From the UHGV virus genome UHGV-0175244: DNA of 44,935 bases; one strand, 5' to 3'. The stretch is from a virus. Under the pieces are notes generated by a model. That model had not been told where the DNA came from. It ran no database searches and was given only the letters and a program-made list of their open reading frames with translations. Of the stretch, positions 26,720 through 29,486 are shown piece after piece; the stretch's first letter is position 1; each line of letters opens with the position of its first letter. The translations under genes were made by a program, and so were the position numbers.

Positions 26720-26794
26720 TGGAGCATCTGGCGGGGATCGAACCCGCATATTCTGGTTGGAAGCCAGACGTAATTACCAAACTACGACAGATGC
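26720..26794 (-). tRNA. phage-encoded tRNA-Gly (anticodon UCC)
   Basis: 75-nt cloverleaf folded by hand: perfect 7-bp acceptor and 5-bp T stems, T-loop TTCGATC, anticodon loop CUUCCAA, discriminator U, CCA encoded. Confidence 0.8.
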
Positions 26795-27029: not shown

Positions 27030-27839
27030 TTATTTCGTCACCCGGGAGAGAATGACATCAGCGTAGGATTCCTGTTTGTGACATTCGGATACCAGCTCCT
27101 CGAAGAAAGGTTTCAGTTGCTCATAAGCTGCCGTTTTCTTAATGTCAGCCACGGCCCTTACCCCTTCCATCACCGTCGAAAACTTCATGCGCGCATAACC
27201 TCTTCCGCTGCAGCGATCGCATACCTTCATTACCGGTAGCCCAAGGCGCTCGCTGGTCTCTTTATCCAGTACCTTTCCTTTTCCATTGCAGCGACACGAA
27301 TTGCTGATAACACCCTTTCCGTTACAGGCTGAGCATTTAACTTTGACCACTTCGCGCACTTCGCTCCAGCTCTCCCAGTGGCTTGGGCGAACTGCTCGGG
27401 ACATCTTTGCCCAAAAAGGTGGCTTGCCCCACGGATATGAGCATTTATTGGTGAATACCTGGGCCTCTGTGAAGCCAGTCCCATCGCAGCAAGTGCATTT
27501 TCTAACGCTGGCAGCACTTCGCGTGTAATCCTGGTATGCAAAAGCACACAGAACTTCGAGAACTCTTTTGCGAACGTCCTGGCTGAGTTCTGAAACGATA
27601 TTAAAGCGGATTGATAATCGCTCTGCTGATTCATAAAGTAGCTCCATTGCTCGGTCAGGTGCGCTCACCCCAATCTTTGCAAGATAGAGGTCGAAGCCGA
27701 ATCCGCACTTGGCATTTACCAGACCAAGAGCGGCCATGATGTCAGTGCCGGTTAGACCATCAGATGCAGTAGCCCGTGGCGAGTCGCTCAGCATTGGTGA
27801 TTTAGGCGCGAAATATTTGGCGATAGATTCGAGGTTCAT
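27030..27839 (-). CDS. Q: late-gene antiterminator Q (lambda Q family)
   Basis: N-terminus [39 protein letters not shown] closely recalls lambda Q; C-terminal CxxC zinc-finger region. Confidence 0.85.
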   Translation of the reverse strand: MNLESIAKYFAPKSPMLSDSPRATASDGLTGTDIMAALGLVNAKCGFGFDLYLAKIGVSAPDRAMELLYESAERLSIRFNIVSELSQDVRKRVLEVLCAFAYQDYTRSAASVRKCTCCDGTGFTEAQVFTNKCSYPWGKPPFWAKMSRAVRPSHWESWSEVREVVKVKCSACNGKGVISNSCRCNGKGKVLDKETSERLGLPVMKVCDRCSGRGYARMKFSTVMEGVRAVADIKKTAAYEQLKPFFEELVSECHKQESYADVILSRVTK

Positions 27840-28622: not shown

Positions 28623-28785
28623 GCGCCTTCCTCGCCGCGAGACGCAGCCATTTCTGATCCACCAGGCGGGCGGTGTAGCCTTTCAGGGTCGGTATGTCGG
28701 ACGGCTTAACCGCTGGCTTGCGCTGGCGGCGCGCCGGAACGCGGAAGATTTCGTTTGAGATAACGCGGGAAAGTGGAGTTGACAT
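28615..28785 (-). CDS. ninE: NinE-like protein
   Basis: 56-aa ORF not in ORF track; C-terminal YTARLVDQKWLRLAARK recalls lambda NinE; overlaps flanking genes. Confidence 0.5.
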   Translation of the reverse strand: MSTPLSRVISNEIFRVPARRQRKPAVKPSDIPTLKGYTARLVDQKWLRLAARKAHG

Positions 28786-29240
28786 CAGGCCTCCTGCTTA
28801 TCGCGCAGCACCTGAAATTCGCTGCTTTGAGGTATGGTTAGCACCAGGCCAAACTGAGCGCACCAACCTTCCACCTGGCACATGAAATGATGCATGTCGC
28901 CAGTGTCCAGATCGGACGTGTGGCGCAGTTCTAATTCAATCGTCTTAATTCCGGTCACGAAGTCGGTGTATTCAACCTCTTCATAACCGAGATGGGTCTT
29001 TTTGAGGTTGCGCTTTACCCATGCAGGCGTGGCGTCAGTGCGCCCAGACTTGATCAGGTAATCGCTGATTTCCTCGTACCAGACATGGCTCAGACTATTT
29101 TGAGAAAGGCTTCTCTTCTCGCGCCAGTCTTTGAGTTGCAGCCGGAAGCACTCACCGTTTTCGAGAAGTGGCTTCAGATGCTGAGTGATAGCACCAAGAT
29201 TTCCACGGTGTAGCTTGATGCCGTCTTTGGGGAGAATCAT
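28785..29240 (-). CDS. ninB: NinB recombination protein
   Basis: 151 aa; strong AGGAGG RBS; NinB/YbcN family character. Confidence 0.8.
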   Translation of the reverse strand: MILPKDGIKLHRGNLGAITQHLKPLLENGECFRLQLKDWREKRSLSQNSLSHVWYEEISDYLIKSGRTDATPAWVKRNLKKTHLGYEEVEYTDFVTGIKTIELELRHTSDLDTGDMHHFMCQVEGWCAQFGLVLTIPQSSEFQVLRDKQEA

Positions 29241-29423
29241 ACGGCCTCCTTAACGGAAACCGCAGAATGCAGAAAATCGCAGGTGCATTTCTGCATCTGT
29301 GACAAGGTGAGGAGTTCAGATTGTGTTCGCATTTAAGTCCCCTTAAATGCGCAGAAGTCACCGGAGTTGTTCAGGCTCCGATGACATGATTATGGACGGT
29401 TGATTCAACAAAATCAACGCGAG

Positions 29424-29444
29424 AAAAAGGCCTCCGGAGAGGCC
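29424..29444 (-). terminator. rho-independent terminator (tR2-like) upstream of nin genes
   Basis: ggcctc-cgga-gaggcc hairpin followed on minus strand by U5. Confidence 0.5.
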
Positions 29445-29486
29445 CTGGCTGTCGATATGGGGATTCCCATATCGCTTGTATGGCAG

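What the first reader, a model, noticed from the sequence alone, without database searches (positions are those of the whole stretch)
29241..29486. Intergenic region upstream of ninB packed with palindromes and a terminator
In about 250 bp there are four separate inverted repeats: tgcagaaa ... tttctgca (about 29270-29298), gcatttaag-tcccc-cttaaatgc (9-bp arms, about 29330-29352), ttgattcaacaaaatcaa (about 29401-29418) and atatgggga/ttcccatat (about 29455-29473), plus a minus-strand rho-independent terminator (29424-29444). The position matches lambda tR2 ahead of the nin genes. The density of palindromes suggests extra regulation, for example protein operators or a small structured RNA.
Basis: seen in the sequence. 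Interest (0 to 1): 0.4.

Follow-up and report, generated by a model that had tools for sequence, protein, structure and literature searches.

The report
Conserved structured leader before prophage ybcN
The palindrome-rich stretch is real: it holds an ordinary transcription terminator followed by a widely conserved promoter, folded RNA leader and tiny reading frame that sit in front of the recombination/late-regulator genes of many lambda-like prophages and probably gate their expression, but whose function has never been tested.

Summary
All four palindromes and the minus-strand terminator are present and far denser than chance (4 perfect repeats in 246 bp against 0.26 expected; 0/500 shuffles). 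Genes here run on the minus strand. The region has two unrelated parts. (1) 29474-29424: a stem-loop plus an intrinsic terminator ending the upstream gene block. This part is mosaic and rare. (2) 29418-29237: a sharply bounded module found in 3051 of 5426 complete E. coli genomes (K-12 DLP12 ylcH, phage 82 orf33, phi80, HK639). It consists of a conserved TTGATT-17-CATAAT promoter overlapped by a DNA palindrome, then three RNA hairpins supported by compensatory changes (18 of 27 pairs; shuffles 6.4). The first hairpin has an invariant CUGAACA loop. The second is GNRA-capped and hides the start codon of a 31-codon frame. The third is followed by a U-tract and looks like a terminator. A fourth hairpin covers the Shine-Dalgarno sequence of the next gene, and the small frame's stop overlaps that gene's start (ATGA). 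The peptide sequence is not under selection. The best reading is a leader/attenuator analogous to lambda ninA-tR2. No Rfam family matches and I found no functional study. The mechanism is inferred.

The parts
29453..29474 (-). Stem-loop CGAUAUGGG-GAUU/AAUC-CCCAUAUCG just after the stop codon (29489-29487) of the upstream 81-aa ORF. It is not conserved with the module.
   Evidence: Perfect 9-nt arms. Folds. Present in only the few relatives that share the upstream segment.
29424..29444 (-). Intrinsic (Rho-independent) terminator T1: GGCCUC-UCCG-GAGGCC followed by UUUUU. It ends the upstream gene block and sits in the position of lambda tR2.
   Evidence: Read directly. Folds with z=-3.7 together with the preceding hairpin. 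A terminator abuts the module in only 5 of 102 distinct contexts.
29399..29418 (.). DNA palindrome GTTGATT-N6-AATCAAC overlapping the -35 hexamer. The arms are conserved and the 6-bp centre is free. It may be a regulator site.
   Evidence: column information 8-9 of 9 in the arms, 1-4 in the centre.
29389..29417 (-). Sigma-70-type promoter-like element: -35 TTGATT (29417-29412), 17-bp spacer, -10 CATAAT (29394-29389). Homology with all relatives starts exactly at the -35.
   Evidence: TTGATT in 78 of 86 copies, CATAAT in 78 of 86, spacer of 17 bp in 83 of 86. 84 different 12-mers abut the -35. L175 has a 4-nt insertion but gains an extended -10, TGGTATAAT. GenBank X92588 annotates the same hexamers as putative.
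29357..29385 (-). Hairpin 1 at the predicted 5' end of the transcript: GUCAUCGGAG-CCUGAACAA-CUCCGGUGAC. The stem covaries and the loop core CUGAACA is fixed.
   Evidence: At least 6 wholly different stems with the same loop. 8 of 10 pairs have changes on both sides and 95.9% of cells are paired. The loop is kept in the diverged copy L179.
29349..29359 (-). Invariant single-stranded linker GACUUCUGCGC between hairpins 1 and 2. Its role is unknown. UUCUGC could pair with GCAGAA of hairpin 3.
   Evidence: Invariant columns in 109 sequences. The alternative pairing is inference only.
29328..29351 (-). Hairpin 2: CGCAUUUAAG-GGGA-CUUAAAUGCG. It has a GNRA-type loop that doubles as a Shine-Dalgarno-like GGGGA. 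The start codon AUG (29332-29330) of the small ORF lies in the 3' arm.
   Evidence: Five different stem sequences, loop always GGGA or GGAA, ATG or GTG always in the 3' arm, -13 to -17 kcal/mol. Annotated as IR4 in phi80.
29237..29332 (-). 31-codon leader ORF (MRTQSELLTLSQMQKCTCDFLHSAVSVKEAV), homologue of phage 82 orf33 and K-12 DLP12 ylcH. Its stop TGA (29239-29237) overlaps the ATG of ybcN (29240-29238).
   Evidence: The frame, start and ATGA/GTGA overlap are kept in about 115 of 124 distinct copies, whatever gene follows. There is no codon-position bias.
29300..29327 (-). Variable, unstructured, C-rich and G-poor spacer inside the ORF. Its composition resembles a Rho-loading (rut) site.
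   Evidence: 51 distinct versions, mean C 39% and G 8%.
29267..29299 (-). Hairpin 3 plus U-tract, a terminator-like attenuator T2. The conserved core is CAG.AUGCA-GAAA-UGCA.CUG (29299-29280), followed by CGAUUUUCUGCAU.
   Evidence: RNAalifold picks the core. Compensatory changes occur in L053, in the GCUUAACGGC variants and in L179. Flagged as terminator-like in the window and in phage 82. 66 of 89 copies meet the terminator criteria against 50 of 3000 random 50-mers.
29240..29264 (-). Hairpin 4: UGCGGUUUCC-GUUAA-GGAGGCCGUA. It sequesters the Shine-Dalgarno sequence (AAGGAGG, 29251-29245) and the first base of the ybcN start codon. Its 5' arm lies inside the leader ORF.
   Evidence: Three unrelated 3'-end types each form their own hairpin over the SD, -6.8 to -16.1 kcal/mol.
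28785..29240 (-). Regulated gene: YbcN-family protein (151 aa), a distant NinB/Orf recombination mediator. It is followed by ninE, ybcO, rusA and the Q antiterminator.
   Evidence: NF007281, 1.9e-74; PHROG 72, 3.6e-40; PMC4118853.

Best explanation
The 246 bp contain two juxtaposed things on the minus strand.

First, a stem-loop and an intrinsic terminator (T1, 29444-29424) close the upstream accessory-gene block, in the position of lambda tR2.

Second, from 29417 down to 29237, there is a self-contained, horizontally shuffled 'nin-leader' cassette. It has a sigma-70 promoter overlapped by a DNA palindrome, followed by a leader RNA of about 145 nt. The leader is a cis-acting gate for the genes behind it (ybcN/ninB, the other nin genes, and Q).

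Proposed working (inferred):
- Hairpin 2 hides the start codon of a 31-codon leader ORF.
- When the ORF is not translated, hairpin 3 plus its U-tract (and perhaps Rho loading on the C-rich spacer) stops transcription. This gives a short RNA of about 115 nt.
- In that state hairpin 4 keeps the ybcN ribosome-binding site closed.
- When a ribosome does translate the leader ORF, it melts hairpins 3 and 4 and terminates on the ATGA overlap. Transcription then reads through and ybcN is translated by coupling.
- Hairpin 1, with its fixed CUGAACA loop at the 5' end, is a recognition or stability element for an unknown partner.

Shown here: the anatomy, the conservation boundaries, the RNA pairings, the maintenance of the ORF frame and overlap, and the lack of selection on the peptide.
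Inferred: promoter activity, termination, coupling, and what flips the switch.
For: Anatomy and chance:
- Repeats are far above chance.
- The leader folds at -56.6 kcal/mol, z=-5.1, into exactly these hairpins.

Distribution:
- The module is in 3051 of 5426 E. coli genomes and in phages 82, phi80, HK639 and HK225.
- It lies upstream of 21 of 23 metagenomic YbcN homologues.
- It has sharp borders: the 5' end is at the -35, next to 84 different flanks.

Promoter:
- Hexamers and the 17-bp spacing are conserved while the spacer centre and discriminator vary.
- An extended -10 compensates for a spacer insertion in L175.

RNA structure:
- 18 of 27 pairs show changes on both sides, against 6.4+-1.4 in shuffles (0/500) and at most 7 in slid controls.
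- Whole-stem swaps keep the loops fixed.
- G-U pairs dominate on the sense strand only (U-G 54, C-G 29, U-A 6 at one pair).

Leader ORF:
- The start codon, frame-preserving indels and ATGA/GTGA overlap are kept before YbcN, NinB, NinG, Q or a small hydrophobic peptide, and in the diverged L179 copy.
- Substitutions fall evenly on codon positions (19/25/24 and 25/31/28). The synonymous fraction is near neutral.
- A 5-nt swap changes QKC to LNG but keeps the hairpin.

Attenuator:
- 74% of copies have a terminator-like hairpin and U-tract, against 1.7% of random 50-mers.

SD hairpin:
- It is present in three unrelated 3' types.

Analogy:
- Lambda and P22 have a 26-codon ninA ORF that contains tR2 and overlaps ninB by ATGA.
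Against: - No transcript data were available. Promoter use, the 3' ends and translation of the ORF are untested.
- Published work says DLP12 rusA needs an inserted promoter for adequate expression (PMC4118853). This fits either a tight attenuator or a weak or dead promoter.
- Hairpin 3 is a weak terminator: it has an internal A.C mismatch and 2-3 nt lie between the core stem and the U-run. 26% of copies fail the simple criteria.
- The diverged L179 copy keeps the leader but has no recognisable promoter, so the promoter may be a later addition.
- Openness of the ORF frame is weak evidence by itself: the +1 frame is also open in 79 of 90 copies.
- No antiterminator alternative is supported by covariation.
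- The sequences are related, so cell counts overstate the number of independent events.
- My SD-accessibility statistic was uninformative.
Confidence: 0.55

Rival explanations
1. The cassette is first of all a small-RNA gene. The promoter plus the hairpin-3 terminator make an RNA of about 115 nt. Its conserved unpaired stretches (hairpin-1 loop CCUGAACAA, linker GACUUCU) base-pair with host or phage targets, or bind a protein, in trans. Read-through into ybcN is secondary.
For: - It is a complete promoter-to-terminator-like unit.
- Stems vary while the loops and the linker are invariant, the usual pattern of seed regions.
- A second copy is detached from ybcN in some phages.
- ylcH RNA is reported on its own as changing 2-fold under microaerobiosis (PMC8910356).
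- Precedent: short PR'-tR' transcripts act as the sRNA StxS (PMC7547250).
Against: - The ORF frame, the ATGA overlap and the SD hairpin are maintained downstream of the putative 3' end. That only makes sense for a cis function.
- The detached copies are still coupled to a downstream ORF.
- No target was found. The loop motif is not enriched in the window.
- No published sRNA matches.
Confidence: 0.2
2. The palindromes are DNA operators for regulatory proteins. This is the first reader's idea and the 1996 GenBank note for phage 82 ('possible regulator-binding site').
For: - The TTGATT-N6-AATCAA palindrome has conserved arms and a free centre, and it overlaps the -35, as a repressor site would.
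- X92588 annotates hairpin 1 as a possible regulator site.
Against: - For hairpins 1-3 the arms are what varies and the centres are what is fixed. That is the reverse of a protein operator.
- Changes are compensatory, and T-G 'mismatches' predominate on one strand only.
- The module is shared by hetero-immune phages with different repressors.
- By eye, against consensus sequences recalled from memory, it does not fit FNR (spacing 8, not 4), LexA, IHF or Fur. No tool was run for this.
Confidence: 0.1
3. The small ORF encodes a functional small protein (YlcH), and the conservation reflects the protein.
For: - The ORF is annotated in K-12 and RefSeq.
- The start codon and frame are kept.
- The core SQMQKCTCDFLHS is nearly invariant.
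Against: - The invariant core shows no synonymous variation at all, and overall there is no third-position excess.
- The N-terminal third is replaced wholesale between types.
- The C-terminus is dictated by the next gene's Shine-Dalgarno sequence.
- L179 has SLTFADAS in place of SQMQKCTC but keeps the hairpin.
- The peptide has no Pfam, NCBIfam or PHROG family.
Confidence: 0.1
4. The conserved block is only a recombination 'linker' or hitch-hiking mosaic joint with no function, and the palindromes are incidental.
For: - It has sharp homology borders at gene junctions, as seen in lambdoid mosaicism.
- The downstream genes are recombination functions.
Against: Compensatory stem changes, conserved promoter geometry, a maintained frame and overlap, and retention in a 70%-diverged relative are not expected of neutral DNA.
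Confidence: 0.05

Closest known systems
Lambda / P22 ninA-tR2 junction (26-codon ninA ORF containing the tR2 intrinsic terminator, directly upstream of ninB)
   Same: - Same map position: after the replication and accessory genes, before the NinB/Orf-family gene.
- A small ORF whose stop overlaps the ninB start as ATGA.
- A terminator hairpin plus U-tract inside that ORF.
   Different: - No sequence or model similarity: the covariance model finds nothing in lambda, P22 or lambda-type NinB loci.
- Lambda ninA has no promoter of its own, no 5' hairpins and no start-codon hairpin. It is coupled to the upstream gene ren or gene 12.
- In the window a separate strong terminator (T1) precedes the cassette.
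Phage 82 orf33 region (GenBank X92588, Mahdi et al. 1996) and E. coli K-12 DLP12 ylcH
   Same: Direct homologues, about 80% nucleotide identity over window 29417-29258. They have the same promoter hexamers, the same inverted repeat and the same small ORF overlapping orf151/ybcN.
   Different: - In those records the features are only 'putative' annotations, with the inverted repeat read as a protein site. No RNA structure or function has been described.
- The hairpin-2 stem and the 3' end differ from the window's by compensated changes.
Leader-peptide transcription attenuators (trp, pyrBI type) and translational coupling through SD-sequestering hairpins
   Same: A short ORF in a structured leader, a terminator hairpin within or just after it, and downstream expression that depends on a ribosome moving through the leader.
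   Different: - No run of regulatory codons.
- No covariation-supported antiterminator.
- The ORF's own start is buried in a -13 kcal/mol hairpin, so the input signal, if any, is unknown.
Short promoter-proximal phage transcripts (lambda 6S/PR'-tR' RNA, StxS; oop RNA)
   Same: A constitutive-looking promoter followed within about 115 nt by a terminator-like hairpin. Read-through gives the downstream operon (PMC7547250 for StxS).
   Different: Different locus (upstream of Q, not downstream), no Q-utilisation site, contains a translated-looking ORF, and no evidence of Hfq binding.

Membership tests
Intrinsic (Rho-independent) terminator - T1, 29444-29424 minus strand | G+C-rich stem-loop | tested here: met
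   GGCCUC-UCCG-GAGGCC; extended to 8 pairs in the fold.
Intrinsic (Rho-independent) terminator - T1, 29444-29424 minus strand | Run of U immediately 3' of the stem | tested here: met
   UUUUUCUC directly after the stem.
Intrinsic (Rho-independent) terminator - T1, 29444-29424 minus strand | Transcripts actually end there | not testable with these tools
   Needs 3'-end mapping or in vitro transcription.
Lambda tR2 / ninA junction | Position between the replication/accessory genes and the NinB/Orf-family gene | tested here: met
   A helicase-like ORF and accessory ORFs lie upstream; YbcN (PHROG 72 NinB/Orf), NinE, YbcO, RusA and Q lie downstream.
Lambda tR2 / ninA junction | Small ORF overlapping the ninB start and holding a terminator hairpin | tested here: met
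   The 31-codon ORF has an ATGA overlap and contains a terminator-like site at 29295-29268.
Lambda tR2 / ninA junction | Sequence homology to lambda/P22 ninA-tR2 | tested here: not met
   Model R1 finds nothing in lambda, P22 or lambda-type loci. The sequences are unrelated by eye. It is therefore an analogue, not a member.
ylcH / orf33 leader module (phage 82, DLP12) | Nucleotide homology across promoter, hairpins and small ORF | tested here: met
   Identity is 75-96% over query positions 70-246 or 84-243. Alignments A1 and A2. Covariance-model score 196.7 bits.
Sigma-70 promoter | -35 and -10 hexamers at 16-18 bp spacing | tested here: met
   TTGATT-17-CATAAT, 9 of 12 matches, conserved across the family.
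Sigma-70 promoter | Mapped transcription start | not testable with these tools
   No TSS data were reachable. The supplement look-up found nothing.
Leader-peptide attenuator | Translatable short ORF with SD and start codon in the leader | tested here: met
   GGGGA lies 5-6 nt before the ATG/GTG in all stem variants. The frame is kept.
Leader-peptide attenuator | Terminator whose formation depends on ribosome position | tested here: inconclusive
   A terminator-like hairpin and U-tract lie inside the ORF in 74% of copies. Dependence on translation was not tested.
Leader-peptide attenuator | Mutually exclusive antiterminator structure | tested here: inconclusive
   Linker UUCUGC could pair with GCAGAA, but both are invariant, so there is no covariation. 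The pairing is lost in the GCUUAACGGC variants.
Leader-peptide attenuator | Regulatory codon run in the leader peptide | tested here: not met
   No repeated codons in any peptide type.
Any Rfam 15 family | Covariance-model match | tested here: not met
   No hit at gathering score in the window apart from two tRNAs. The only hit with E<=10 is a spurious snoRNA at E=9.5.
NinB (Pfam PF05772) for the downstream gene | Pfam NinB domain hit | tested here: not met
   No Pfam family at E<=0.01. It is YbcN/PRK09741, a remote relative of the Orf family (PMC4118853).
Trans-acting Hfq-type sRNA | Own promoter, intrinsic terminator with U-tail, conserved unpaired seed | tested here: inconclusive
   All three are present in form, but the terminator is weak and a cis function is also encoded.
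Trans-acting Hfq-type sRNA | Chaperone binding and target regulation | not testable with these tools
   No data.

The most novel reading that the evidence does not exclude
The cassette is a new, very widespread class of phage regulatory RNA, present in more than half of E. coli genomes. Its 5' hairpin loop (CUGAACA) and GNRA-capped hairpins are recognised by a phage or host factor, or act in trans as an sRNA of about 115 nt. That recognition decides whether transcription and translation proceed into the nin genes and the Q antiterminator. It would be an N-independent checkpoint on the lysis decision and on prophage-encoded recombination functions.
Probability: 0.2. Interest if true: 0.7.

Novelty: new variant of a known kind. 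Interest (0 to 1): 0.5.

Why it matters
The element stands at the entry to the nin-Q block. That block sets the timing of late gene expression, and in Stx phages toxin release. It also carries recombination genes (orf/ybcN, rusA, ninG) that prophages lend to their hosts.

A conserved promoter plus attenuator here would mean that many lambdoid prophages, including DLP12 in K-12 and prophages of O157, have a second control point for these genes that is independent of the immunity region. That could explain why rusA is silent in K-12.

The element is also an unusually clean example of a structured RNA with whole-stem swaps that is absent from Rfam. It is easy to test with reporter fusions in K-12.

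Tried and rejected
- Rfam at gathering and at permissive thresholds gave nothing.
- The literature on ylcH/orf33 and on exact sequence strings gave nothing functional. The 1996 phage 82 paper is not held.
- The prophage sRNAs Pas and svsR lie elsewhere, next to the holin genes and at the cI 3' end.
- The supplement look-up for small-protein ribosome profiling holds no files.
- Recalled by eye and rejected, with no tool test:
  - boxA/boxB nut site (wrong loop, wrong order);
  - HK022/HK639 put RNA (not annotated there, different position);
  - FNR (TTGAT-N4-ATCAA, whereas the spacing here is N8);
  - LexA, IHF, DnaA and Fur boxes.
- A search for complements of the hairpin-1 loop in the window gave 6 near matches against 2.8 expected, which is not significant.
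- The related-loci run with lambda NinB returned only identical copies, so it served only as a negative set.
- Two of my scripts had faulty anchors and were redone.
- The SD pairing-probability statistic did not discriminate from its control and is not used. Only the three hairpin types from that call are used.
- MAFFT misregisters hairpin 2 between stem types, so alifold missed it. The per-pair counts for helix 2 understate the pairing. The per-variant folds are the better evidence.
Full report
**Observation**

Genes in this part of the window run on the minus strand. Reading right to left, the order is:
- a DnaB-like helicase ORF (33561-32188);
- several accessory ORFs, including a DUF551 protein (30115-29726) and an 81-aa ORF of unknown function (29732-29487, PHROG 34180);
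- the finding;
- a 151-aa YbcN-family gene (29240-28785);
- ninE, ybcO, rusA and a Q antiterminator (27839-27030).

The minus-strand terminator GGCCUC-UCCG-GAGGCC-UUUUU lies at 29444-29424.

The density is not chance. The window as a whole has 0.26 such repeats per 246 bp. This is its only stretch with four. None of 500 dinucleotide shuffles reaches four.

**Two parts with different histories**

BLAST against phages and against 5,426 complete E. coli genomes shows that only window 29417 to about 29241 is widely shared.
- It occurs in 3,051 genomes. These include K-12 (prophage DLP12) and O157 EDL933.
- It occurs in phages 82, phi80, HK639, HK225 and others.
- Only 8 genomes also share the terminator and the 29453-29474 palindrome.

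Among 102 distinct upstream contexts the homology always begins at the hexamer TTGATT. Eighty-four different 12-mers abut it. A terminator-like site lies just upstream in only 5.

The terminator T1 and its companion hairpin therefore belong to the mosaic segment that ends the upstream genes. The rest is a discrete cassette.

**What public records already say**

- GenBank X92588 (phage 82) annotates a putative -35/-10, a 'possible regulator-binding site', a ribosome-binding site and orf33, which overlaps orf151.
- In K-12 the small ORF is the 33-codon hypothetical protein upstream of ybcN, known to me as ylcH.
- The phi80 record marks the second palindrome as IR4.
- I found no functional study.
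- YbcN is a remote member of the lambda Orf/NinB family. The same paper notes that rusA downstream in DLP12 needs an inserted promoter for adequate expression (PMC4118853).

**Promoter**

The promoter-like element is TTGATT (29417-29412), a 17-bp spacer, then CATAAT (29394-29389).

Across 86 distinct copies the -35 is TTGATT in 78, the -10 is CATAAT in 78, and the spacer is 17 bp in 83. The spacer centre and the discriminator are free to vary.

One lineage (L175) carries a 4-nt insertion that spoils the spacing, but it has TGGTATAAT, an extended -10.

Its arms are conserved and its centre is free, and it overlaps the -35. That is the behaviour of a DNA site, not of an RNA stem.

**RNA structure**

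I collected about 150 copies from genome, viral and metagenome collections. I reduced them to 109 distinct sequences (A2).

The loop core CUGAACA stays fixed in all of them.

*Hairpin 2 (29351-29328).* It occurs with five different stems. The loop is always GGGA or GGAA. An ATG or GTG is always present in the 3' arm.

It is CAG.AUGCA-GAAA-UGCA.CUG (29299-29280). Four lines of evidence support this:
- RNAalifold picks it.
- L053 has a compensated CCG/CGG change.
- Several copies replace GCAGAAAUGC by GCUUAACGGC and keep the hairpin.
- The diverged copy L179 rebuilds it from different letters, including the internal A.C mismatch.

*Counts on a model-based alignment of 90 distinct copies.*
- 18 of 27 pairs show changes on both sides.
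- Shuffles give 6.4+-1.4 (0 of 500 reach 18).
- Slid registers give at most 7.
- Caveat: this alignment was fitted to the structure, and the sequences are related.

*Strand.* G-U pairs predominate on the minus strand. One pair is U-G in 54 copies, C-G in 29 and U-A in 6. This fixes the strand and argues for RNA rather than a protein-bound DNA palindrome.

*Fold and known families.* The window's leader folds into exactly these hairpins at -56.6 kcal/mol (z=-5.1). No Rfam family matches.

**The small ORF**

The ORF runs from ATG 29332-29330 to TGA 29239-29237 and has 31 codons. Its stop overlaps the ybcN start as ATGA.

In about 115 of 124 distinct copies the ORF has 31-33 codons and ends in ATGA or GTGA on the next gene. 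That next gene can be YbcN, a true NinB (HK639), NinG, a Q antiterminator, or a 27-aa hydrophobic peptide.

The diverged L179 copy also has a 31-codon ORF with the ATGA overlap.

Several observations show that the peptide itself is not conserved as a protein:
- Substitutions fall equally on the three codon positions (19/25/24 and 25/31/28).
- The synonymous fraction (0.32 and 0.29) is close to the neutral expectation (0.24 and 0.21).
- The N-terminal third is replaced between types.
- The C-terminus is simply the translated Shine-Dalgarno region of the next gene.
- The invariant middle has no synonymous variation and coincides with hairpin 3.

Openness of the frame alone is weak evidence, because the +1 frame is open in 79 of 90 copies. 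The argument rests on the start codon, the frame-preserving indels and the overlap.

The best reading is that the act of translation matters, not the product.

**Terminator-like element and SD hairpin**

Hairpin 3 is followed by CGAUUUUCUGCAU. The consensus scan flags a terminator-like site there in the window (29295-29278 plus tail) and in phage 82.

By the same criteria 66 of 89 copies qualify, against 50 of 3000 random 50-mers.

Between hairpins 2 and 3 lies a 31-nt segment that varies freely (51 versions) but is always C-rich and G-poor (39% and 8%). That composition resembles a Rho-loading site.

The last hairpin (29264-29240) pairs the ybcN Shine-Dalgarno sequence with a 5' arm lying inside the leader ORF. 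The three unrelated 3'-end types of the family each have their own version.

**Comparison with lambda and P22**

In both phages a 26-codon ORF, ninA, lies directly upstream of ninB. It overlaps ninB by ATGA and contains the tR2 hairpin and U-tract.

The window's cassette has the same logic in the same place, but no sequence or model similarity. It adds a promoter and two 5' hairpins. I therefore call it an analogue of ninA-tR2, not a member of that family.

**Mechanism (inferred)**

T1 stops unmodified transcription from the early operon. The cassette promoter starts a leader whose uORF start is buried in hairpin 2.
- Without leader translation, hairpin 3 and its U-tract (and possibly Rho) end the transcript at about 115 nt, and hairpin 4 keeps ybcN closed.
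- With leader translation, the ribosome opens hairpins 3 and 4 and reinitiates at the ATGA overlap.
- Antiterminated polymerases coming from upstream would ignore both terminators.

What opens hairpin 2, and what reads the invariant hairpin-1 loop and the invariant linker GACUUCUGCGC, is unknown.

A trans-acting role for the short RNA is the main rival. The two roles are not exclusive.

**Verdict**

The object is a previously annotated but uncharacterised cassette. Its RNA structure is well supported by comparative evidence, and its function as a leader/attenuator is a reasoned inference.

I rate it as a new variant of a known kind of cis-regulatory leader, of moderate interest.

Noticed in passing
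L128:475-790 (also L061, L064, L060, L121): Some phage contigs carry a second copy of the cassette 2-4 kb upstream of the ybcN copy. There the extended leader ORF ends in TGATG on a 27-aa very hydrophobic peptide (MSWPKVVATVGAVIVVVVIIAPPICKG). The peptide has no family in NCBIfam or PHROGs and could be a small membrane toxin. In L060 and L121 the second-copy leader ORF has a premature stop.
   Followed up: partly
L104:10919-11090 and L031:7255-7425: In these contigs the cassette sits directly in front of a Q-antiterminator-like gene (271 aa, ATGA overlap) or a NinG-like gene (187 aa). The cassette therefore marks the start of the nin-Q block rather than ybcN specifically.
   Followed up: partly
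window 26720-26794 (-) and 43603-43679 (-): A tRNA-Gly(TCC) lies just downstream of the Q gene inside the prophage. A tRNA-Arg(TCT) lies next to a 387-aa ORF (42424-43587, +) that I guessed by position to be the integrase; no family search was run on it. If so, this would be the likely attachment site and prophage end.
   Followed up: no
window 18079, 19642, 21584: There are three further perfect inverted repeats with arms of 9-10 nt elsewhere in the window. They were not examined.
   Followed up: no
window 27030-27839 (-): Besides the Q antitermination domain (PF03589), the Q-like protein has a sub-threshold match to the DnaJ CXXCXGXG zinc-finger repeat.
   Followed up: no
window 29260-29272 (-): A second weak terminator-like hairpin, CUGCA-UUC-UGCGG plus UUUCCGUU, lies directly after hairpin 3. 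It is specific to this 3'-end type of the cassette and overlaps the 5' arm of the SD hairpin.
   Followed up: no
L179:1345-1505: A 70%-diverged YbcN locus from a metagenome keeps the leader hairpins and the uORF. The leader starts immediately after the upstream gene's stop codon and there is no recognisable promoter. The RNA leader may therefore be older than the promoter.
   Followed up: partly
window 29417-29241 versus public phages: The closest phage matches are Enterobacter phages (CobraSix 95.5%; ENT1/BHUENT 99.2% over half the query). The genome-collection hits are mostly Enterobacter, Citrobacter and Trabulsiella. No E. coli genome covers 80% or more of the surrounding 3 kb. The window's host is therefore probably not E. 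coli.
   Followed up: no
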